Shown: positions 8,475 to 17,147, counted from the stretch's first letter. The stretch: DNA of 64,000 nt from a bacterium (GCA_030648955.1 JAUSHB010000013.1:12675-76674); one strand, 5' to 3'. A program made the numbers and translations. The notes: generated by a model not told the origin, from the letters alone.

Positions 8475-9086
8475 CTAAGGTGCTTCGTCTTCTTCTGGTG
8501 GTGGTGGAGTTACTTGTTCCTTTTTCTTTGCCTTTTCATTTTCTTCATCTTTATATTTAATCATGATCGTGAAATCGATGTTTTTATCTTTTACGAGATC
8601 AGAAATCGGGAGACTCACGTCTTTAAACACTGCGTCTTTTTTAAGTATCTCGACAAAATTTGTAAGACTCTGGCGATTCGTTGCCATTCCTTTTAAAGAA
8701 AGGGTGCTTTCGATATCTGTTTTGTTGTAAAATATTCCCCGTATCTTTATATCTTCAGTTTTATAACGAGCTGTTTTTTGAAGCAGATCGGATGAAAGAG
8801 TAAATTTTTTCCCTTTCTCATTCAGTAGATCAATCGTGGTATCAGTTTCTTTGACAATCACCTCGAGGTTTTTTGCCTCTTGAAAAGATGTTTTTTTGTC
8901 GTCTGTTTTTGATAAATTTTCCACCACGATGGATTGTTTGTGAGACGCGAGAAGATACGCCGGGACAAGAAGTATTATTGCAATAATCATTGTTGTCGCG
9001 AGCATAACAAGCGCGGTAGTAGTAAGCCGTATGCGATACTCCGAGATGACCCTTTTTATTCCTGATATGGGAAGGAGATTTATCAT
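8475..9086 (-). CDS. pilN: Type IV pilus assembly protein PilN-like
   Basis: It has an N-terminal TM helix and lies immediately downstream of pilM, with PilN-like architecture and a Pro-rich acidic tail. Confidence 0.55.
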   Translation of the reverse strand: MINLLPISGIKRVISEYRIRLTTTALVMLATTMIIAIILLVPAYLLASHKQSIVVENLSKTDDKKTSFQEAKNLEVIVKETDTTIDLLNEKGKKFTLSSDLLQKTARYKTEDIKIRGIFYNKTDIESTLSLKGMATNRQSLTNFVEILKKDAVFKDVSLPISDLVKDKNIDFTIMIKYKDEENEKAKKKEQVTPPPPEEDEAP

Positions 9087-9125
9087 GATTTAGAATTCAT
9101 TTCAATAAAAACGGCGTTACGATTG

Positions 9126-10211
9126 TTATTCGGAGGGACGAAGCGCAAGACCAATTGCTGTCGCATAACTTAAGGAGTCGCCGAATTCGATTTCCGGTAT
9201 ATAACGATCAAAGGTATTAACGTTTACCATTGCATTACCAAGTTCTATTTCTGTCTTCAGGCCCGGTAAAACAAAATCAATAAAGCCCGTGAGGTTTGAA
9301 TCACTCCCGCACATAAATACTTTTTCTACCTTGGGTCTTTTTCCGCCATCTTGATCAAGGTGTGTGTTCCAATATATATAATGTTTATTGATCTCATCTT
9401 TTAAAATCGAAACGGTGGACATGAGTACGAGAAACATTTCCTGTGTTTCTTCGTTTTTCAAGAAACCCTTTTCTTTTTTTATATTTTCTGCCTCTTCTGT
9501 GCTAACTCCAAATTGTTTTTCTATTGCTTTTGTGAGCGAACTTCCTCCAATGTTTAGCGTCGAAGTAAAAACTACTGTTTCTTCACTGACAATCGATATT
9601 CCCGTTTGTGTTTTACCAAAATCTACAATCATATAAGTCCCCTTGTCGCCACGCGGAATAATCGAACGAGCAACGGCTTGAGCTTCAACTTCAAACGCGA
9701 TGGGCATGATGCCGGTATGTTCAAAAATACTGGTGTAACTTTCTGCAACAGTGCGGGGCACAGCAGCAAGGGAAAGTTCCATATGTTCTTTATCTTTGTG
9801 TGAACTATTTACAATATCGTAATCAAATGTCGCGTCCCCCATCGATATGGGAACGTATTCTTCAAGCTGAAGTTCCAGACTCCCTCGGATCTCGCTTTGT
9901 TTCATGGTGAGAACATTAATCGTGAGAAGGTACGATTGCTGTTCAGGTAATGAAACGTTGGCAAAATCAATATTGTGTTCTTGATGTATAGAGGATAAAA
10001 CTTTTTTAAGCTCCTCGGTATTTTTTATTTCTCCCCCTATAATAACTCCGGGAGCAATATTTCGAAATCCGTATTTTCCAATTACAAAACCTTTGCGTGT
10101 TTCAATAATTTCCACAAATCGTATAGCCTGATCCGAAATATCAAACCCAACGGAAGGCATTCTCAAAAATACCGGTGGGGGGAAAAATTTATAGAAAAGA
10201 CTTTTTTTCAT
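9126..10211 (-). CDS. pilM: Type IV pilus assembly protein PilM (actin-like ATPase fold)
   Basis: The sequence GFDISDQAIRFVEI ... MIVDFGKTQTGISIV ... LNIGGSSLTKAIEKQF is PilM/FtsA-like. The start was chosen at MKKSLFYKF. Confidence 0.7.
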   Translation of the reverse strand: MKKSLFYKFFPPPVFLRMPSVGFDISDQAIRFVEIIETRKGFVIGKYGFRNIAPGVIIGGEIKNTEELKKVLSSIHQEHNIDFANVSLPEQQSYLLTINVLTMKQSEIRGSLELQLEEYVPISMGDATFDYDIVNSSHKDKEHMELSLAAVPRTVAESYTSIFEHTGIMPIAFEVEAQAVARSIIPRGDKGTYMIVDFGKTQTGISIVSEETVVFTSTLNIGGSSLTKAIEKQFGVSTEEAENIKKEKGFLKNEETQEMFLVLMSTVSILKDEINKHYIYWNTHLDQDGGKRPKVEKVFMCGSDSNLTGFIDFVLPGLKTEIELGNAMVNVNTFDRYIPEIEFGDSLSYATAIGLALRPSE

Positions 10212-10455
10212 CCTGTAGTAGAAAAAGGCATTGCTCTTATCGAGCAAAATTGCTGCTTAGTGGATAAATAAAAAAACAAATCATTTGTTGTACTATGAAG
10301 AATATTATACCATTGTGGGTTGCTCCAATGCCATTTTTCACCGCAGGATTCATGAAATATTCAACGGTATCCTTGTTCCTCTATAAGTATACGGTGCAAC
10401 AGCATAATGCGCAAAGTAAACTTTCTGCGGAATGCGCACCACAGCGGTGCACGCA

Positions 10456-11102: not shown

Positions 11103-11534
11103 TTATTTAAGCGGTGTTCCTACGGGAACTTCTTTTGCTGGTTCGACGGTTGTGAAATGTTCCCCTTCTCCAACAGCATAAAGGATCATCCCCTGGCTTT
11201 CGTGTCCTCGAATCACACGTGGCGCAAGATTGGTGAGCACGGGTACTTGTTTCCCCACCAAAACAGACGGGTCAGGATAATGCATTGCGATACCGGAAAG
11301 AATTTGTCGCGGACTTCCTTCTCCGAGGTCAACCGTAAACTTAATGAGCTTATCCGCATCAGGAACTTTCTCCGCGGAAAGAATTTTCCCGATCTTTATT
11401 TTCAGTTTTGCAAAATCTTCAATCGAAACCATCCCAAGGTCTGACCTTGGGGAATTTTTAAGGTCTGCCTGCGCGGTAGACAGGTCAAACCTTTGCTCTT
11501 CAAGTTTTTTATTTTCACCGTCAGTCATGGGCAC
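11103..11534 (-). CDS. tRNA-binding domain protein (Trbp111/CsaA/MetRS C-terminal-like)
   Basis: The sequence IKIGKILSAEKVPDADKLIKFTVDLGEG...RQILSGIA is a tRNA-binding OB fold. Confidence 0.7.
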   Translation of the reverse strand: MPMTDGENKKLEEQRFDLSTAQADLKNSPRSDLGMVSIEDFAKLKIKIGKILSAEKVPDADKLIKFTVDLGEGSPRQILSGIAMHYPDPSVLVGKQVPVLTNLAPRVIRGHESQGMILYAVGEGEHFTTVEPAKEVPVGTPLK

Positions 11535-12541
11535 ATTGTATCATTATTTATTCTCCACGAATACAAAAATTTTTTGATTCCAACAGAGGGATCGTGCGTA
11601 TCCCCGTGAGAGAGGAGCCCGAGGTACGATTCGTACGTCTCCTTCGTTGGGCGTTTCTCTAAACGCCGAAACATCCTGCATTTGGTCGTTGTCCTGAGGA
11701 CCCGATGGTTTGTAAAGTGCACCCAGCCGAGAAAATCAATGCCTGATGCAAATGTCTTTATAAAAACCTTGTCGGGATGGAGAGTGAGCTTGAGTTTTAC
11801 TTCAAGAAATTCGGAAATTTTTGGGATAAGACTTTCAAGATAATTCTTGTCGCCATGCACTACCACAAAATCATCAGCATAGCGAATATAATGCTTCACC
11901 TTGGTCGTATGTTTCATGAACTGATCAAACTCATTCATATAGATATTGACAAGGAGCTGCGACGTAAGGTTGCCAAGCGGTAGACCGATGCCAATTTTGC
12001 CTTCAGTATGAAAACTATCAATAACCTGCCCCAAAAGCCAGAGAATATTTCCGTCTTTGATATGCCGAGCCAAAATATCTTTCAGTATTGCGTGATCTAT
12101 GCTTGCAAAAAATTTTCTGATATCGCACTTCAAAACCCATGCGGTATTCGTATAGTTAGATGAAACTTTCCCGCTATATTCTCTGAATCGGTTGATGGCG
12201 CGGTGCGTACCCTTGCCTAATCTGCAGGAATACGAATCAAAAATAAATTTCCGGTCAAAATAGGTATAAAGGGTGCGGTAAATCGCGTGGTGCACCAACC
12301 GATCACGAACCGTTGCTTTGTGAATATCACGCGGTTTCGGGTCATTGATCTTAAACGCATAATATCCGCCATGTGTGTATATTTTTGCCGCGAGTTCACC
12401 TCGAAGCAGGAACAGATTATCGGCAAAGTTCAATAAAAACTCCGCAACGTCCTTTCGTTTCCGTTTACCGCGCAAAAATTCCTGCCACGAGACAAGCAAA
12501 TTTTCTAGGGAAATGATATCATCATATCCATGGCGCAGCAT
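11525..12541 (-). CDS. Diversity-generating retroelement reverse transcriptase
   Basis: The N-terminus DIISLENLLVSWQEFLRGKR is DGR-RT style. Other RT motifs are DPKPRDIHKATVRDRLVHHAIY, GLPLGNLTSQLLVNIYMNEFD and the active-site YIRYADDFVVV. It is ~339 aa with no maturase or endonuclease domain. The start was set at MLRHGYDD, and the track ORF extends upstream through a (GA)n tract. Confidence 0.85.
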   Translation of the reverse strand: MLRHGYDDIISLENLLVSWQEFLRGKRKRKDVAEFLLNFADNLFLLRGELAAKIYTHGGYYAFKINDPKPRDIHKATVRDRLVHHAIYRTLYTYFDRKFIFDSYSCRLGKGTHRAINRFREYSGKVSSNYTNTAWVLKCDIRKFFASIDHAILKDILARHIKDGNILWLLGQVIDSFHTEGKIGIGLPLGNLTSQLLVNIYMNEFDQFMKHTTKVKHYIRYADDFVVVHGDKNYLESLIPKISEFLEVKLKLTLHPDKVFIKTFASGIDFLGWVHFTNHRVLRTTTKCRMFRRLEKRPTKETYESYLGLLSHGDTHDPSVGIKKFLYSWRINNDTMCP

Positions 12542-12886
12542 TTTCCTCTCTCTCTCTCTCTCTCTCTCGAAAACGCTTCGATCCTTCAGCGCATCAAAGA
12601 GGGATATTTGGTGTGGTTGAAGATTGTCTCGCATATTCCCAAAGGACAACGCTATACGTTAGGCGCTCGTATTGAAAACAAATTTCTTGATCTGCTCGAG
12701 GTTGCACACCAAGCATACTTCATTGAGCGGGAAAAGAAAATGGGGAAAGTCGTGCAGTGCATATTCCTACTCGACACGCTTAAGTTTCTCCTCCATGTCG
12801 GATGGGAAGCAAAACTTATCTCGCACAAACACTACGCCGAAATCGCAGAAAAGCTGGATGAGATCGGCAAAATGCTCGGTGGCTGA
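12530..12886 (+). CDS. avd: Avd-like four-helix-bundle accessory protein of the DGR (IVS-protein family)
   Basis: The motifs GQRYTLGARIENKFLDLLEVAHQAY...KKMGKVVQCIFLLDTLKFLLHVGW...KHYAEIAEKLDEIGKMLGGW match the Avd/23S-IVS protein family. The gene is divergent from the RT and overlaps its start. The true start is uncertain because the ATG at 12530 precedes the (CT)12 tract. Confidence 0.7.
   Translation: MAQHFPLSLSLSLENASILQRIKEGYLVWLKIVSHIPKGQRYTLGARIENKFLDLLEVAHQAYFIEREKKMGKVVQCIFLLDTLKFLLHVGWEAKLISHKHYAEIAEKLDEIGKMLGG
12543..12566. repeat. (CT)12 dinucleotide microsatellite at the RT/avd junction
   Basis: There are 24 bp of perfect CT repeats. On the minus strand they form a GA-rich tract immediately 5' of the RT start codon, and on the plus strand they encode LSLSLSLS in the annotated avd ORF. 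Confidence 0.9.
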
Positions 12887-12949
12887 AAGAAGAATCTGGA
12901 CAATCCTGAAAAGAAAAACCGCACATCATTATGAGTGCGGAAAAGAATG

Positions 12950-13088
12950 ACTTTCGGGAGCAGAAAACAAACTGGTTGTCGGCATTCCACCTGTTCGACG
13001 GCTTCGCGTTGTTCGCATTAAGCTTGAGTTCCACATCGTCGGCATTCAGATTGAACACATTCGGGTTACCATCACCGGTCAGTATTTG
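12950..13088 (-). repeat. DGR template repeat (TR)
   Basis: It is ~139 bp and ~85% identical to 13403-13541. On the coding (minus) strand every one of ~20 TR/VR differences has A in this copy, which is the adenine-mutagenesis signature. The ORFs drawn over it (12816-13220 minus, 12931-13197 plus) are not genes. Confidence 0.85.
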
Positions 13089-13379
13089 TATGCGATGCCA
13101 TCTGAGCCACCGCCAACCTAGCCCGCCAATCGGCGGAAGAGTGTCGACTGTATCGCATTTGAGATCTAAAATCCGCCAGCATCGCACACCAAGTTGATTT
13201 CTTTTTTGGGAAAAACGCATACCCTCTGCAAAAAACCGTAGCCATTTGCACCCTCAATACGCGCCAACTGGAAAGGTTTCGGGAAGCCATAACCGCCCGA
13301 TATGACCAAACCATTTTGAGTATATCAAAAAAATTTTCAAAAAGCGCCAAAGGGCTCAAGTGTCAAAATCACAAAATTC

Positions 13380-15233
13380 CTAAGATTCAGAGGCTTCAAG
13401 TTTCTTGCGGGAGCAGAAAACAAACTGGCTGACGGCATACCACCTGCGCGACGGCCTCGCGCGGTACGCATCAAGCTCGAGTCCCACACCGCCGGCATCC
13501 AGAGAGAACACACTCGGGTAACCATCACTGGTCAGAATTTGCTTCATGGCGATCAGTTTCCAATCCCTGCCCCCATACTGGAGTCGCAGGTACGGTCCGA
13601 TTTCGGCGGGAGCAAGTTCCAGTCCGAGTTTGATCGCTTTGGCGTATATCTCATCCGTCGTGGCGCCCTTAGGAAAATCGAGTTGTGCAACGGTAAATTG
13701 CACTAATTCGTAAGTTTTACTCTCTGTGCTGAATTCCGTTTTGTAGAGAATGTCTTTTCCCCACTCTGACAGATAGATGTTTTTGGCTTTCAGAGATTCT
13801 TCCGCTTTTTCCGGAGAGTTGACCGTAGGGTCGGTTTCCATGTGTCTCATGAATATCTCTTTGTCGGGAAATGATTCATAAAGATGCTTAATGTTCGGAT
13901 ATTGCTTAATGGTTTGGAAAATGGTCGGATTCCATTCGCCAATATACGCTTTTGTGTCATTATTAATCTCCTTCGGCACATGAGCGATCTCCTCTTTCAC
14001 GCATTCAAAGATGACGAGCATGTCTTCCTCCGAATTTCTCCCTTGGCGAAGTTCCTGGATGCGCGGATCGCTCTCATAGCCGAAGCCTTGGATGGGTGAA
14101 TCAATTTCGTAGAGAAAGATAAATTCGTCTTTGGTGAGCGGTTCGTTTTTCTTTGTTTTGTTTTCAATCTGAGTGAGAAGCTTCATGTCTTCGCTTTTCC
14201 TGCGGTACGTGTCCGCCTCACTTCCGAATTCTGCGAGTTTCTCGTCAAGCACTTCCTGCATGAGAGGCTCGACGCTTTGGTGTGGTAAAACGCCTCGTAT
14301 CTGACCGATCTGAGAACCACTCATTTGTATGGCAAGACGGGGATGAGTCGGTTCGCCACTTGCGTCATTGGTATAATAGACATAAAAATCGCCTTGCTTG
14401 ATATAACTGCTAGCTGTCGTCTTACCTTCCACACACCACCCTGTACCCTGACCCTGCATTGATTCAAAAAGGTTCTCTGCGTCCGTATTATTACCCTGTG
14501 CATACTTCATCCACTGTCCGCGAATTTCTTCGCGGTTCTCCATTGAAGCGGCGAGGGACTTTGAGATAAGCTCGGCATAGAGAGCAGGGAACTTTTTTGA
14601 AAATGCTTCTCGAATTTCCGGCTCTTTGAGATTTTTGTTGTCCGCTTTTACTTTTTCGTAAACATCGAGTATTTGCGCAAGCGCTCCCCGATGAATATCC
14701 GGGAATCGTGCCACGGTGGTGCTCGTTCGTTCTTTGAATTTGCCGAGTTCTTTATCAAATTGAGAAAGCTTGGTGATGTTCCGCCAGACGAAATATTTGA
14801 ACCATGTTGGATAGGCAACATCCTCTTCGCTGAGATAATCCGTCCACGCGTCAAGCGAGTGTTTTTGGTCTTCTATCGCCACCTCCATCATCTGCCTGCG
14901 GACATTTTCGGAGATTTCCTCCACGACCTCTCCGCGCTCACGCGCGATGCGCTTTTGAAGCTCAAAGTATGACTCGGGAAAATTCTCACGCTTGATGATG
15001 AGCGCGTCATATATCTTGTCGCGGAACATTTCAAGATTGCGCTCGCGCGTTCGTTCGTCGGGATTGAGAAAGATGTTCTCCAGACGATCCATATACGCTT
15101 CAATCCGCTCCGCAGGGTCGTTGGGTATCTTTTTACCCGTGTGCCGTTCCTCTCGCTCGACAGCATCTTCTACATCGGATGACGTTTGGAGTTCGGGGAG
15201 CTTTTTGTGGAGAAATTCAAAGTCTTCTTTCAT
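13380..15233 (-). CDS. DGR target protein (617 aa, variable C-terminal ligand-binding-type domain, no signal peptide)
   Basis: The VR occupies the last ~45 codons. The N-terminus MKEDFEFLHKKLPELQ has no signal peptide or TM helix. The remaining ~560 aa match nothing I recognise. Confidence 0.8.
   Translation of the reverse strand: MKEDFEFLHKKLPELQTSSDVEDAVEREERHTGKKIPNDPAERIEAYMDRLENIFLNPDERTRERNLEMFRDKIYDALIIKRENFPESYFELQKRIARERGEVVEEISENVRRQMMEVAIEDQKHSLDAWTDYLSEEDVAYPTWFKYFVWRNITKLSQFDKELGKFKERTSTTVARFPDIHRGALAQILDVYEKVKADNKNLKEPEIREAFSKKFPALYAELISKSLAASMENREEIRGQWMKYAQGNNTDAENLFESMQGQGTGWCVEGKTTASSYIKQGDFYVYYTNDASGEPTHPRLAIQMSGSQIGQIRGVLPHQSVEPLMQEVLDEKLAEFGSEADTYRRKSEDMKLLTQIENKTKKNEPLTKDEFIFLYEIDSPIQGFGYESDPRIQELRQGRNSEEDMLVIFECVKEEIAHVPKEINNDTKAYIGEWNPTIFQTIKQYPNIKHLYESFPDKEIFMRHMETDPTVNSPEKAEESLKAKNIYLSEWGKDILYKTEFSTESKTYELVQFTVAQLDFPKGATTDEIYAKAIKLGLELAPAEIGPYLRLQYGGRDWKLIAMKQILTSDGYPSVFSLDAGGVGLELDAYRARPSRRWYAVSQFVFCSRKKLEASES
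13403..13541 (-). repeat. DGR variable repeat (VR) within the 3' end of the target gene
   Basis: It is the counterpart of the TR. It encodes the C-terminus ...ILTSDGYPSVFSLDAGGVGLELDAYRARPSRRWYAVSQFVFCSRKKLEASES, where the TR encodes ...ILTGDGNPNVFNLNADDVELKLNANNAKPSNRWNADNQFVFCSRKSF. Confidence 0.85.
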
Positions 15234-15239
15234 GGTTTA

Positions 15240-15629
15240 TTATTCTTGATTCTTCTTTTTATCCAAATAACTTTGCAAAATGATTGCCGCCGCGGATGCA
15301 TCAATCATCTCTCCCTTCCCTTGCAAATGTTCCGCGGCGGCGGATGTCATGAATTCCCGCTCAAAGTGAACTGGCAAACCCGTGACATCCTCTAACTCCT
15401 TTTTAAACGGAGTTATCTTCTCCATAATAACATTTGGTTTCATTTTGTAATCAAGAGATTCACCGAGAACGATTTCGGCAATATGTTCTTTATCGCAGAG
15501 TTCTTTGATGGCAGGAATAAGTTTTTTGTCGTTGGGGAGAACCGTACGCGGGAAAGCCATACCGCCTTCACTATCTCCAGTCGCGATTCCTACGCGTTTT
15601 GCCCCATAATCAATGCCAAGAAATTTCAT
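15240..15629 (-). CDS. ruvX: Holliday-junction resolvase-like protein YqgF/RuvX
   Basis: The sequence MKFLGIDYGAKRVGIATGD ... AAAIILQSYLD is typical YqgF. Confidence 0.8.
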   Translation of the reverse strand: MKFLGIDYGAKRVGIATGDSEGGMAFPRTVLPNDKKLIPAIKELCDKEHIAEIVLGESLDYKMKPNVIMEKITPFKKELEDVTGLPVHFEREFMTSAAAEHLQGKGEMIDASAAAIILQSYLDKKKNQE

Positions 15630-15631
15630 AT

Positions 15632-16939
15632 TTATGAGGCGAGGTATTCCTTGATAGCCTCCGCAATAATTTCAAACCGCGATTGTAATTTTTTCTTATC
15701 AGATTCGAGAAGCGTGGTGCGGAATCCTTGGTAATTTGAGTTGAACCCCGAGAGCGGCACCACGCAGATACCGCGGGATGCCATAAGATAATATGCGAAT
15801 CGCCGATCAAACGGAATGTTGGTCATTTTTTTCTCAATAGCCTCTTTTGCGCGGCTGTTTGCGATTGAGAGTGTTTGATTTCCGCGGAGCGTCCCATCCT
15901 CAAACACCACCGTCATATAAAACGCGCCGCCGGGTTTTGGCGCAATAATACCAGAAACTTTTTTGAGAGCCGAATAGGCTATCTCGGCGCGCTCTTCGTA
16001 CTCGTGAGATTGCTCTGCAATGTGTTTGGAGTATCGCGGGTCAGAGAAAATTTCAGGAATCACTCGCTGGGGCAGAGTTGTTGAGCACACCTCAAGCATT
16101 TTTGCGTCAACGATTGTTTTTACATATCGAGCGAACATCGGATCTTTGTCTTTGTTGTACACCTCTATCCATCCACACCGCGAACCGGGCCATGGAATTT
16201 CTTTTGAAAGCCCGCGCATGGTTATACCGGGGACATCTCCTAAAACCTTCGCAATGGGAACCATTTTTTCAGGTCCGTAGGTTATGCGTGCATAGATTTC
16301 GTCAGAAATAACAAAGAGTCCGAATTCTTTTGCGATAGCAACGATTTCTCGAAGAACGCGCTCGGGGTACACCATTCCGGTCGGGTTGTCAGGATTGATA
16401 ATGAGAATTCCAGCGATATTGGGATTATATTTTACTTTGTTGCGCAGTTCCTCAAGATCAGGAAGCCAGTTGCGTTTTGGATTAAGTGTGTAGGTAATAT
16501 GCCGCGAGCCTGCGTGCGCTCCTTCTGCTGATGAATGGGTCGGATATGCGGGATTGGGACCGATCACGCGTGCGCTTTTATTGAGGTAGGTATACACTTT
16601 TGAAATCGCATCGCCCAAGCCATTGAAAAAAAGAATGTCTTCTGCGGTGATGTTTGTTCCGTTTTCTTTGTTAGCTTCTTTGGCAAGAAATTCTCGTGTC
16701 GCAAGAAGCCCCTTGGTAGGAGAATAGGCAAAACTTGCATTGTCCTCGCTTACGGTCTTTTTAATAATGTCGCGGATCCACGGAGGAACAGGGTGCCCCT
16801 TGGCGACAGGATCGCCGATATTTTCCCAAACGATCGAAATGCCTAATTTCTCAAGTTCCCGCCCAACCTCAAAGATCTCGCGGATCTCGTACGTCAGTTC
16901 ATCTGCTCCTGCATGGACAATGTTGGTTCGCATTTCCAT
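15632..16939 (-). CDS. Class I/II PLP-dependent aminotransferase (AlaA/AspC-like)
   Basis: The 435-aa product contains the LSKEIPWPGSRCGWIEV Lys-containing motif and aminotransferase fold signatures. Confidence 0.7.
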   Translation of the reverse strand: MEMRTNIVHAGADELTYEIREIFEVGRELEKLGISIVWENIGDPVAKGHPVPPWIRDIIKKTVSEDNASFAYSPTKGLLATREFLAKEANKENGTNITAEDILFFNGLGDAISKVYTYLNKSARVIGPNPAYPTHSSAEGAHAGSRHITYTLNPKRNWLPDLEELRNKVKYNPNIAGILIINPDNPTGMVYPERVLREIVAIAKEFGLFVISDEIYARITYGPEKMVPIAKVLGDVPGITMRGLSKEIPWPGSRCGWIEVYNKDKDPMFARYVKTIVDAKMLEVCSTTLPQRVIPEIFSDPRYSKHIAEQSHEYEERAEIAYSALKKVSGIIAPKPGGAFYMTVVFEDGTLRGNQTLSIANSRAKEAIEKKMTNIPFDRRFAYYLMASRGICVVPLSGFNSNYQGFRTTLLESDKKKLQSRFEIIAEAIKEYLAS

Positions 16940-17060
16940 AGAGTACTACGCGCGATTCAAAAAATCAAAAATTGCAATGCGGCACTTTTCTGGTACTATT
17001 GAGTCACAAATATTTAGGGCTTATCACGACATAATAGTGAGCAATATTTTACAGTAGTGC

Positions 17061-17147
17061 GGAGGAGTGGCAGAGTGGTCGAATGCACCGGTCTTGAAAA
17101 CCGGAATCTGCGAAAGCGGATCGTGAGTTCGAATCTCACCTCCTCCG
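17061..17147 (+). tRNA. tRNA-Ser (anticodon TGA), type II
   Basis: It has acceptor GGAGGAG/CTCCTCC, anticodon stem CCGGT/ACCGG around loop CTTGAAA, a long variable arm and a GTGAGTTCGAATCTCAC T-arm. Confidence 0.8.

What the first reader, a model, noticed from the sequence alone, without database searches (positions are those of the whole stretch)
11525..15233. Complete diversity-generating retroelement: RT, divergent Avd, template repeat and a variable repeat showing the adenine-mutagenesis signature
A 139-bp non-coding repeat (12950-13088) is ~85% identical to the 3' end (13403-13541) of the 617-aa gene at 13380-15233. All ~20 mismatches lie where the non-coding copy has A on the coding (minus) strand, with VR substitutions to C, G or T. 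One extra G/A difference is not at a TR adenine. Between them lie an RT with a DGR-type N-terminus and a YADD active site (11525-12541) and an Avd/IVS-family four-helix-bundle gene (12530-12886). At protein level the TR-encoded Asn (AAY) codons appear in the VR as Tyr, Ser, Gly, Asp and Arg (N-N-N-D-D-K-K-N-N-N-N-N versus Y-S-S-G-G-G-E-Y-R-R-Y-V). Unusually, avd is divergent from the RT and target instead of co-directional.
Basis: partly seen in the sequence, partly recalled or inferred. Interest (0 to 1): 0.85.

Follow-up and report, generated by a model that had tools for sequence, protein, structure and literature searches.

The report
Candidate-phyla-type diversity-generating retroelement
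This is a genuine diversity-generating retroelement of the kind already catalogued in ultra-small "candidate phyla radiation" bacteria, so the element itself is ordinary, but its relatives share two features I did not find described: a large folded RNA in front of the template and a slippery simple repeat where the two enzyme genes meet.

Summary
Read on the minus strand, the template repeat (TR, 12955-13088) and the variable repeat (VR, 13408-13541) differ at 20 of 37 TR adenines and at 1 of 97 other bases (Fisher p = 9e-13). The VR is the 3' end of the 617-aa gene.

The reverse transcriptase (RT) matches the Bordetella phage DGR enzyme best. The Avd call passes Pfam's cut-off. The variable domain models as a C-type-lectin-like fold.

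The "unusual" divergent avd is not unusual. TR-(avd)-RT is published Architecture B3, which covers 90% of DGRs from candidate phyla radiation (CPR) bacteria. All ~105 related cassettes I examined have it.

- The 290-nt "gap" between target gene and TR holds a conserved extended -10 promoter and a ~225-nt RNA domain with strong covariation. It abuts the TR and matches no Rfam family.
- A covarying hairpin plus U-tract lies 14-16 nt after the TR and overlaps the avd 3' end.
- 101 of 105 cassettes carry a simple repeat, (CT)n or poly-C, inside the avd 5' coding region at the RT start. avd is in frame in only 36 of 101. This suggests phase-variable control.
- This copy's avd has a TGA at a conserved Trp codon.

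Verdict: a new member of a known kind, with possibly new family-level features.

The parts
13380..15233 (-). Target (variable protein) gene, 617 aa. The first ~500 residues have no recognisable family. The C-terminal ~120 residues form a C-type-lectin-like domain that carries the VR.
13408..13541 (-). Variable repeat (VR), the last ~44 codons of the target gene before the conserved FVFCS tail.
   Evidence: The hypervariable columns of the family alignment fall here. In a 90%-identity cluster of relatives, 30-45% of all differences fall in the last 60 residues.
13319..13327 (-). Predicted extended -10 promoter (TGATATACT) of the template RNA, preceded by a T-run.
   Evidence: A TGnTAnnnT or near variant sits at the same place in most of 25 related cassettes, 8-10 nt before the conserved start of the RNA domain. 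This is a consensus match only. No transcription data.
13190..13312 (-). 5' part of the structured RNA domain: two hairpins that share a CGGYUACGGYUU loop motif, then an A-rich linker.
   Evidence: Alignment A5 with RNAalifold: 24 predicted pairs, 22 with compensatory changes. Invariant G-U pairs fit only this strand.
13088..13190 (-). TR-proximal part of the RNA domain: a 12-bp long-range helix P1 (13190-13179 pairing with 13098-13088) enclosing hairpins P2 and P3. The 3' arm of P1 abuts the first TR base.
   Evidence: Alignment A4: 22 pairs, 91.5% of cells paired against 75% in shuffles and 23-44% in slid controls, 18 pairs with changes on both sides, 0 of 500 shuffles reach the observed value. 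Covariance model R1 hits the window once (13074-13209, E = 5e-19). It gave 65 hits in 64 of 80 independent metagenome cassettes, once each except two in L099, all on the RT strand at a near-constant distance upstream of the RT. No Rfam family matches.
12955..13088 (-). Template repeat (TR). It may extend to about 12951.
   Evidence: It encodes no protein of its own; the overlapping ORF 12816-13220 has no family match.
12908..12940 (-). Stem-loop (CCGCAC...GUGCGG, 12940-12919) followed by UUUUUCUUUUC. It looks like an intrinsic terminator and sits where the Bordetella DGR RNA has its Avd-binding stem-loop.
   Evidence: Present 10-18 nt after the TR end (mostly 14-16) in nearly all 33 cassettes, with many different stem sequences that keep pairing. 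Predicted in the single-sequence fold. The comparison with Bordetella comes from bioRxiv 10.1101/2023.10.23.563531.
12530..12886 (+). avd accessory gene, divergent from and overlapping the RT start by 12 nt. The ORF ends at a TGA (12884-12886) where relatives have Trp; the frame stays open to 12934 (KKNLDNPEKKNRTSL*).
   Evidence: Pfam bAvd 49.9 bits, above the cut-off of 40. NCBIfam DivGenRetAVD E = 1.5e-17 but below its cut-off. PHROG 3206. Tail comparison. TGA is an ordinary stop in this window, ending 9 of 44 long ORFs.
12546..12568 (.). Simple-sequence repeat (CT)11C in avd sense, (GA)n in RT sense. It covers avd codons 6-13 and ends 5 nt before the RT start codon.
   Evidence: Sequence. 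An equivalent (CT)n, poly-C or (AC)n tract is present in 101 of 105 distinct related cassettes. An independent Logan assembly of SRR13727527 breaks exactly at 12546.
11525..12541 (-). DGR reverse transcriptase, 338 aa, with YADD and GNLTSQ motifs.
   Evidence: Pfam RVT_1 E = 3e-20. Best PDB match bRT 8ub7, E = 7e-37. PHROG 1423 E = 5.7e-105.

Best explanation
This is a chromosomal diversity-generating retroelement of the lineage found in candidate phyla radiation (Patescibacteria) bacteria, with the published TR-(avd)-RT layout.

Shown here: the parts, their order and their conservation.

Inferred working model:
1. An RNA of about 400 nt is transcribed on the minus strand from an extended -10 promoter at about 13327-13319.
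2. It consists of a folded 5' domain of about 225 nt, the 134-nt template, and a hairpin with a U-tract.
3. The RT, with Avd, copies the template into cDNA and misincorporates opposite adenines.
4. The cDNA replaces the VR at the 3' end of the 617-aa gene, rewriting about 16 surface codons of a C-type-lectin-like domain.

By analogy with the Bordetella RNA-protein structure, helix P1, which abuts the 5' end of the template, probably stops cDNA synthesis. The hairpin just after the template probably binds Avd and may also terminate transcription before it runs antisense into avd.

The simple repeat at the avd/RT junction probably makes Avd expression, and hence mutagenesis, switch on and off by slippage. 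In this copy avd is in frame but lacks its 16-residue tail because of a TGA codon.
For: - Adenine-specific TR/VR differences, p = 9e-13.
- RT closest to bRT. Avd above Pfam's cut-off. PHROG DGR families matched.
- C-type-lectin-like fold of the VR domain.
- About 38 related loci show the same TR/VR pattern with almost only A mismatches.
- The cassette TR - antisense avd - RT is conserved in three placements relative to the target gene and in 74 of 74 metagenome contigs where both genes are visible.
- The layout matches published Architecture B3 and the Patescibacteria-restricted DGR clade 2.
- 5' RNA domain: strong covariation on the TR strand and a covariance model that finds it at a near-constant distance upstream of the RT, once per cassette with one exception.
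- 3' hairpin with compensatory stems.
- Conserved extended -10 box.
- Repeat tract in 101 of 105 cassettes. Codon periodicity begins right after the tract, so translation must pass through it.
- Tract lengths differ between near-identical cassettes: G10 against G8 with identical 60-nt flanks, and C11, C14, C18 in contigs that encode an identical target protein.
Against: - No read-level data. An independent assembly of the same run is identical across 12546-17096, so there is no sign of VR heterogeneity here.
- avd carries a premature TGA, so this copy may be impaired.
- The RNA ends, the priming site and the roles of P1 and the hairpin are inferred from a distantly related system.
- The in-frame fraction of avd (36 of 101) equals the 1/3 expected if frame did not matter (p = 0.67). 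This fits fast switching. It equally fits a tract with another role.
- Homopolymer lengths in assemblies are error-prone, and some contigs are visibly garbled at the tract.
Confidence: 0.9

Rival explanations
1. A relic: a DGR that was active in the past but is now disabled in this genome. The VR would then be frozen at its last state.
For: - avd has a TGA at a Trp codon that is conserved in every relative.
- One non-adenine TR/VR difference has accumulated.
- Two assemblies of the sample give an identical VR.
- About two thirds of related cassettes have avd out of frame.
- Many target homologs have no cassette within 6 kb.
Against: - The RT ORF is intact with its catalytic motifs.
- The core bAvd domain is complete to profile position 102 of 107.
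- TR and VR have no indels, and only one of 97 non-A positions differs.
- The RNA domain scores as well as those of relatives.
- The frame after the TGA is still open, which suggests a recent change or read-through.
Confidence: 0.2
2. The repeat tract at the avd/RT junction is not an on/off switch of Avd. It could be a ribosome-binding or promoter-spacer element of the RT, or merely a tolerated by-product of the head-to-head gene overlap.
For: - In (GA)n cassettes the tract ends in GAGAGG 3-5 nt before the RT ATG, like a Shine-Dalgarno site.
- In many poly-G cassettes a TATAAT-like hexamer follows the tract directly, as if it were a promoter spacer.
- The in-frame fraction equals chance.
- 47 of 101 cassettes have a possible in-frame start codon after the tract.
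Against: - 54 of 101 cassettes have no in-frame ATG, GTG or TTG between the tract and the conserved Avd helix.
- Codon-position periodicity starts at the first codon after the tract.
- 64 of the 65 out-of-frame cassettes keep an ATG in another frame within 45 nt upstream of the tract; in-frame ones have it 7-44 nt upstream, most often 16-20.
- Three different repeat types occupy the same place, which suggests that mutability rather than sequence is what is kept.
- The roles are not exclusive. A tract in a divergent overlap could tune both genes.
Confidence: 0.35
3. A retron, group II intron or defence-type reverse transcriptase that happens to sit next to a chance repeat.
For: NCBIfam and PADLOC list group II intron, retron and defence-RT models among the RT's matches, as expected for any RT.
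Against: - All those matches are far below their curated cut-offs (for example group II 135 bits against 300).
- bRT is the best solved relative by 15 orders of magnitude.
- An Avd gene, an adenine-only mismatch pattern (p = 9e-13) and the same pattern in about 38 related loci cannot be coincidence.
Confidence: 0.01

Closest known systems
CPR/Patescibacteria DGRs: Architecture B3, TR-(avd)-RT, of Wu et al. 2018 (PMC5758913); DGR clade 2 of Roux et al. 2021 (PMC8144416)
   Same: The gene order and orientation match: avd is on the strand opposite to TR and RT. The host lineage matches. The element is cell-encoded in a housekeeping neighbourhood. The target has no transmembrane or known N-terminal domain, and the VR is C-terminal.
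   Different: Nothing in the element itself departs from this type. The conserved 5' RNA domain, the hairpin overlapping the avd 3' end and the junction repeat tract are not mentioned in the papers I could read. Paul et al. 2017, the main CPR DGR paper, was not available to me.
Bordetella phage BPP-1 DGR (mtd-avd-TR-brt), including the bRT-Avd-RNA structure (PDB 8ub7 series; bioRxiv 10.1101/2023.10.23.563531)
   Same: - RT family, with 130 bits to bRT.
- Avd family.
- Adenine mutagenesis signature.
- A stem-loop just after the TR.
- A duplex that involves the nucleotides immediately 5' of the TR.
   Different: - In Bordetella avd is co-directional and lies upstream of the TR. The 140-nt functional spacer RNA lies between TR and brt, and the stop duplex pairs upstream with downstream sequence.
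- Here avd is inverted and fills the TR-RT interval.
- I found no conserved structure in the antisense-avd stretch.
- The large conserved structure lies 5' of the TR, and the TR-abutting duplex P1 forms wholly within that upstream domain.
- The target is cellular and apparently cytoplasmic, not a phage tail fibre.
Simple-sequence-repeat phase variation (contingency loci), for example the (TA)n tract between the divergent hifA and hifB genes of Haemophilus influenzae and the poly-G/C tracts of Neisseria and Campylobacter. This rests on my own knowledge plus the general reviews listed.
   Same: The tracts are homopolymers of 7-14 nt or dinucleotide repeats of 9-43 nt. They lie in a 5' coding region and between divergent genes. 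Both in-frame and out-of-frame states occur among relatives, and length differs between near-identical sequences.
   Different: Switching has not been demonstrated here. The regulated function would be a mutagenesis machine rather than a surface structure or a methyltransferase. My literature searches found no paper that links DGRs with such tracts.

Membership tests
Diversity-generating retroelement (DGR) | Reverse transcriptase of the DGR clade, with the [I/L/V]GxxxSQ motif in place of the group II QG motif and closest to known DGR RTs | tested here: met
   Best PDB match is bRT 8ub7, E = 7e-37, against 2e-21 for the next class. GNLTSQ aligns to bRT's GSLTSQ, and YADD is present. PHROG 1423 E = 5.7e-105. 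No phylogenetic tree was built.
Diversity-generating retroelement (DGR) | Template and variable repeat pair whose differences fall at template adenines | tested here: met
   20 of 37 A changed against 1 of 97 non-A, p = 8.9e-13. The same pattern appears in about 38 related loci.
Diversity-generating retroelement (DGR) | VR inside a protein-coding target, usually at the C-terminus in a C-type-lectin fold | tested here: met
   [not shown]
Diversity-generating retroelement (DGR) | Accessory protein Avd | tested here: met
   Pfam bAvd 49.9 bits, cut-off 40. PHROG 'Avd protein of DGR' E = 8e-16. NCBIfam DivGenRetAVD scores 63.8 bits, below its cut-off of 80. This copy lacks the family's 16-residue tail.
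Diversity-generating retroelement (DGR) | IMH / IMH* elements at the 3' ends of VR and TR that direct homing | tested here: inconclusive
   TR and VR share an identical 21-nt 3' stretch that ends in CTCCCG, then diverge. No GC-rich inverted repeat after the VR was evident by eye in the sequence. Function cannot be judged from sequence.
Diversity-generating retroelement (DGR) | Ongoing diversification: VR heterogeneity within populations or cDNA production | not testable with these tools
   No reads are available. Two assemblies of the sample agree. Indirect evidence in relatives: 30-45% of the differences within a 90%-identity cluster fall in the last 60 residues.
CPR DGR Architecture B3 (Wu et al. 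2018) | Core order TR-(avd)-RT with avd on the reverse strand | tested here: met
   On the minus strand: TR 13088-12955, avd antisense 12886-12530, RT 12541-11525. Definition from PMC5758913.
DGR clade 2 (Roux et al. 2021) | RT phylogenetic placement in the Patescibacteria-restricted clade | not tested
   No reference tree is available. The host is consistent: target homologs and related RT loci that carry a plausible name are nearly all CPR/Patescibacteria MAGs.
Rfam RT-associated RNA motifs (RT-1 to RT-19, including the RT-10 DGR spacer motif) | Match of the RNA flanking the TR to a curated covariance model | tested here: not met
   cmscan of 11400-13500 on both strands at E <= 1 gave no match to any of 4227 families.

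The most novel reading that the evidence does not exclude
The CPR-type DGR lineage to which this element belongs has two family-wide features that have not been described.

1. Its functional non-coding RNA elements lie 5' of the template rather than 3' of it. They are a ~225-nt domain with twin CGGYUACGGYUU-loop hairpins and a TR-abutting helix. This relocation would go together with avd being inverted into the TR-RT interval.

2. A hypermutable simple repeat sits inside the avd 5' coding region, at the RT start or promoter. It would act as a stochastic on/off switch of the mutagenesis machinery: a contingency locus that controls a targeted hypermutator.
Probability: 0.4. Interest if true: 0.65.

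Novelty: new member of a known kind. Interest (0 to 1): 0.42.

Why it matters
The element itself adds one more example to thousands of catalogued DGRs.

The comparative anatomy may matter more. All mechanistic knowledge of DGR RNA comes from one phage system in which the essential RNA lies after the template. A lineage where the conserved structure lies before the template would test which RNA elements are truly required for priming and stopping cDNA synthesis. It would also give compact new parts for engineered DGR mutagenesis.

If the junction repeat really is a switch, it would be a simple answer to an open question: how cells limit the cost of a hypermutator that can destroy a well-adapted protein.

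The target family is about 613 aa, 60-70% identical across CPR lineages, apparently cytoplasmic, and has an N-terminal region of about 500 residues with no recognisable family. It is a widespread unknown whose ligand-binding tip is under programmed diversification.

Tried and rejected
- **Target identity.** Pfam, NCBIfam, PADLOC and PHROGs gave nothing. PDB sequence searches with the single protein gave only chance-level hits and with a 120-sequence profile none. Foldseek against PDB gave no significant match for the N-terminal 500 residues. The AlphaFold database library was not available.
- **Second VR.** None in the window.
- **Literature.** Paul et al. 2017, the main CPR DGR paper, could not be opened by DOI or PMC id. 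A 2026 preprint that mentions DGRs and covariation was also not held. My statement that the new features are undescribed therefore rests on an incomplete search.
- **Same-strain data.** An exact-protein look-up of the RT found nothing. The metagenome scan found no relative above 71% identity, so tract length and VR variation could not be measured for this strain.
- **Spacer RNA in antisense avd.** I looked for a Bordetella-like structure in the 190 nt after the TR. RNAalifold predicted no conserved pairs there. The variable-length hairpin was also missed by that alignment and was established separately.
- **Self-priming idea.** I considered that the U-tract after the hairpin pairs with the conserved AAA just after the TR to prime cDNA synthesis. 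I dropped it because the first of those A's appears substituted in this VR (A to C at about 12954), which implies that it is copied rather than paired with a primer.
- **Whole-region fold.** The single-sequence fold of TR plus flanks is no more stable than shuffles (z = 0.36). The structural evidence is comparative only.
- **Alternative genetic code for the avd TGA.** Rejected, because TGA ends 9 of 44 long ORFs in the window.

Full report
**1. The observation**

I read them on the minus strand, the coding strand of the 617-aa gene.
- TR 12955-13088 and VR 13408-13541 differ at 21 of 134 positions.
- Twenty of the differences are at the 37 template adenines. One is at the other 97 bases: G in the TR at 13076, A in the VR at 13529.
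- Fisher's exact test gives p = 8.9e-13.
- A further A-to-C difference lies just past the boundary, at about 12954.
- Nineteen of the 20 substituted adenines are at first or second codon positions. The TR contains ten AAC or AAT codons.
- A scan of both strands of the whole window for sequences matching the non-adenine positions of the TR found only these two copies.

**2. The genes**

The RT (11525-12541, minus strand, 338 aa from the ATG) contains YADD.
- It matches Pfam RVT_1.
- Its best solved relative is the Bordetella phage DGR enzyme bRT (8ub7, E = 7e-37). The next classes, retron-type and group II intron RTs, score about 2e-21. GNLTSQ aligns with bRT's GSLTSQ.
- It scores 5.7e-105 against PHROG 1423.
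- Matches to group II intron, retron and defence-RT models are all far below their curated cut-offs.

The plus-strand ORF 12530-12886 is an Avd.
- It passes Pfam's bAvd gathering score, 49.9 bits against 40.
- It matches PHROG 3206, 'Avd protein of DGR'.
- It falls short of the stricter NCBIfam equivalog cut-off.

**3. The target**

The 617-aa protein has no match in Pfam, NCBIfam, PADLOC or PHROGs, and only chance-level hits among PDB sequences. It does have more than 1300 homologs.
- They are about 613 aa long and 60-70% identical. Those that carry a name come from Patescibacteria/CPR genomes: Microgenomates, Uhrbacteria, Sungbacteria, Paceibacterota and others.
- Their alignment is highly conserved except for a set of hypervariable columns in the last ~50 residues.
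- Within one 90%-identity cluster, 30-45% of all differences fall in the last 60 residues.
- By eye, the N-terminal sequence has no signal peptide or membrane segment.

Structure prediction gave the following.
- The AlphaFold2 model built with 120 homologs is confident, pLDDT 82.

I conclude that the VR sits in a compact, divergent C-type-lectin-like domain, as in other DGR targets. The fold evidence is moderate.

**4. Is the divergent avd unusual?**

No. I fetched 80 genome loci that encode homologs of the target. Then I located RT, avd and TR in each.
- In every locus with both genes, avd and RT are head to head.
- The TR lies just beyond the 3' end of avd, antisense to avd and on the RT strand.
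- This cassette (TR, antisense avd, RT) occurs downstream of the target on the same strand as here, upstream inverted, or downstream inverted.
- About 38 loci show TR/VR pairs whose mismatches are all, or all but a few, at adenines.
- In 80 further metagenome contigs found through the RT, avd is on the opposite strand in all 74 where it is visible.

Wu et al. 2018 define exactly this as Architecture B3, TR-(avd)-RT. [quoted passage not shown] Roux et al. 2021 describe a cell-encoded, Patescibacteria-restricted DGR clade whose targets lack recognisable domains (PMC8144416). The element is therefore a typical member of a known lineage.

**5. What lies in the 'gap'**

The 290 nt between the target stop codon (13380) and the TR (13088) are conserved among relatives on the TR strand. 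Reading 5' to 3' on the minus strand, they contain three features.

*Promoter.* A T-run and an extended -10 box, TGATATACT at 13327-13319, recur at the same position in most of 25 cassettes.

*Twin hairpins.* Two hairpins with the same CGGYUACGGYUU loop motif follow, one nested in a longer stem. In alignment A5, 22 of 24 predicted pairs show compensatory changes. Invariant G-U pairs would be C-A mismatches on the other strand.

*P1-P3 domain.* After an A-rich linker comes a 12-bp long-range helix P1 that encloses hairpins P2 and P3 (alignment A4).
- The 3' arm of P1 (13098-13088) abuts the first TR base.
- 91.5% of cells are paired, against 75% in column shuffles and 23-44% when partners are slid.
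- 18 of 22 pairs change on both sides.
- 0 of 500 shuffles reach the observed values.

A covariance model built from the genome loci finds this domain as follows.
- Once in the 64-kb window, at 13074-13209, E = 5e-19.
- In 64 of the 80 independent metagenome contigs: one hit each, except two in L099.
- Always on the RT strand.
- At a near-constant distance upstream of the RT.

No Rfam family matches the region at E <= 1. That includes the RT-associated motifs of Weinberg et al. 2017, one of which is the Bordetella DGR spacer.

**6. After the TR**

A stem-loop followed by a U-tract lies 10-18 nt (mostly 14-16) beyond the TR end in essentially all 33 cassettes examined.
- The stems are unrelated in sequence but keep pairing: CCGCG, CUGGAC, CCUUGC, CUCCCC, CAGCCG, CUCUCUC, CUUCC and others.
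- In the window it is CCGCAC-loop-GUGCGG (12940-12919) followed by UUUUUCUUUUC.
- The avd stop codon of relatives falls in its loop or 5' arm. The conserved Avd tail (EKKNR or KQNSP) is the antisense reading of the U-tract and 3' arm.
- Beyond it, in the stretch antisense to avd, RNAalifold finds no conserved pairs.

In the Bordetella RNA-protein structure the essential elements are arranged differently (bioRxiv 10.1101/2023.10.23.563531).
- An Avd-binding stem-loop lies immediately after the TR.
- The priming strand follows it.
- A 'stop' duplex pairs the 11 nt just before the TR with spacer RNA.
- An RT-binding stem-loop lies further downstream.

In position, the hairpin after this TR corresponds to the Avd-binding stem-loop, and P1 corresponds to the stop duplex. 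Here, however, P1 is made entirely from upstream sequence. I infer that in this lineage the functional RNA has moved to the 5' side of the template. That leaves the 3' side free for an inverted avd. This is inference from position and covariation. The priming site is unknown.

**7. The junction repeat**

The avd ATG (12530) and the RT ATG (12541) overlap head to head by 12 nt. Between the avd ATG and the Avd domain lies (CT)11C (12546-12568). Read in RT sense it is (GA)n, ending in GAGAGG just before the RT start codon.

Related cassettes carry an equivalent tract.
- 101 of 105 distinct cassettes have one.
- Fifty have (CT)n of 9-43 nt, fifty have poly-C of 7-14 nt, and one has (AC)n.

The tract appears to be translated.
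- The stretch right after it shows codon periodicity from the first codon: entropy lowest at position 2 and highest at position 3.
- 54 of 101 cassettes have no in-frame start codon between the tract and the Avd helix.
- Avd translation must therefore usually pass through the tract.

avd is in frame with an upstream ATG in only 36 of 101 cassettes. That is the fraction expected by chance (p = 0.67).

Tract length differs between close relatives, and assemblies have trouble at the tract.
- L165 and L166 have G10 and G8 with identical 60-nt flanks.
- Contigs that encode an identical target protein have C11, C14 and C18.
- An independent Logan assembly of the window's own run is identical to the window from 12546 to 17096 and breaks exactly at the first base of the tract.
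- Some contigs are garbled at the tract, so part of the length variation may be sequencing error.

The most natural reading is a slippage-driven on/off switch of Avd. It may also tune the RT, because the tract lies at its ribosome-binding site or just before a -10-like hexamer. The chance-level in-frame fraction fits rapid switching. It equally fits a tract whose length does not matter for Avd.

**8. State of this copy**

avd is in frame through the repeat, but it ends at TGA 12884-12886.
- Every relative has the Trp of a conserved GGW motif at that position.
- The frame continues unbroken for 15 more codons that encode the family's tail, down to a second TGA at 12932-12934.
- TGA is an ordinary stop in this window, so this is most simply a recent TGG-to-TGA change.
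- The core Avd domain is intact.

Whether this copy is still active cannot be decided without reads.

**9. Verdict**

The element is a new member of a known kind. Its interest lies in the family-wide features that the comparison exposed: the 5' RNA domain, the terminator-like hairpin shared with the avd 3' end, and the junction repeat. They are well supported as conserved sequence features. Their proposed functions remain inference.

Noticed in passing
window 12884-12886 (and 12887-12934): avd ends at a TGA exactly where all related Avd proteins have the Trp of a conserved GGW motif. The frame stays open for 15 more codons that encode the family's tail (KKNLDNPEKKNRTSL). This is probably a recent nonsense change or a read-through site.
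   Followed up: partly
window 12546-12568; equivalent sites in L002-L073 and L088-L167: A (CT)n, poly-C or (AC)n tract sits in the avd 5' coding region at the RT start in 101 of 105 related cassettes. avd is in frame in 36 of 101. Tract length differs between near-identical cassettes. The Logan contig of SRR13727527 breaks exactly at the tract.
   Followed up: yes
window 13088-13327 (minus strand): A conserved extended -10 box is followed by a ~225-nt covarying RNA domain (twin CGGYUACGGYUU-loop hairpins, then helix P1 abutting the TR). It matches no Rfam family and is found at a near-constant distance upstream of the RT in 64 of 80 independent cassettes.
   Followed up: yes
L004, L012, L024, L025, L028, L040, L043, L045, L053, L055 and others: Many genomes encode the ~613-aa target homolog with no RT or avd within 6 kb. 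The family therefore exists with and without an adjacent DGR. L023 and L065 have degraded TR-like copies, with many or several non-adenine mismatches respectively.
   Followed up: no
L011:4187-11196: One locus has two copies of the target gene with identical 3' ends (210 nt compared), two avd copies and one full RT plus an RT fragment. This looks like a recent tandem duplication of the whole unit.
   Followed up: no
L082:254-1597: In one related strain a serine recombinase gene (Resolvase, Recombinase and Zn_ribbon_recom domains) lies directly beside the RT. This may hint at how the cassette moves or inverts relative to the target.
   Followed up: no
[not shown]
   Followed up: no
window 8475-10247 and 15240-16939: The neighbours are housekeeping genes: ORFs that look like PilM and PilN, a DedA-like and a tRNA-binding-domain protein (all four judged by eye from the translations), and RuvX and an aminotransferase (Pfam-annotated). 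The DGR is therefore chromosomal with no obvious phage context.
   Followed up: partly
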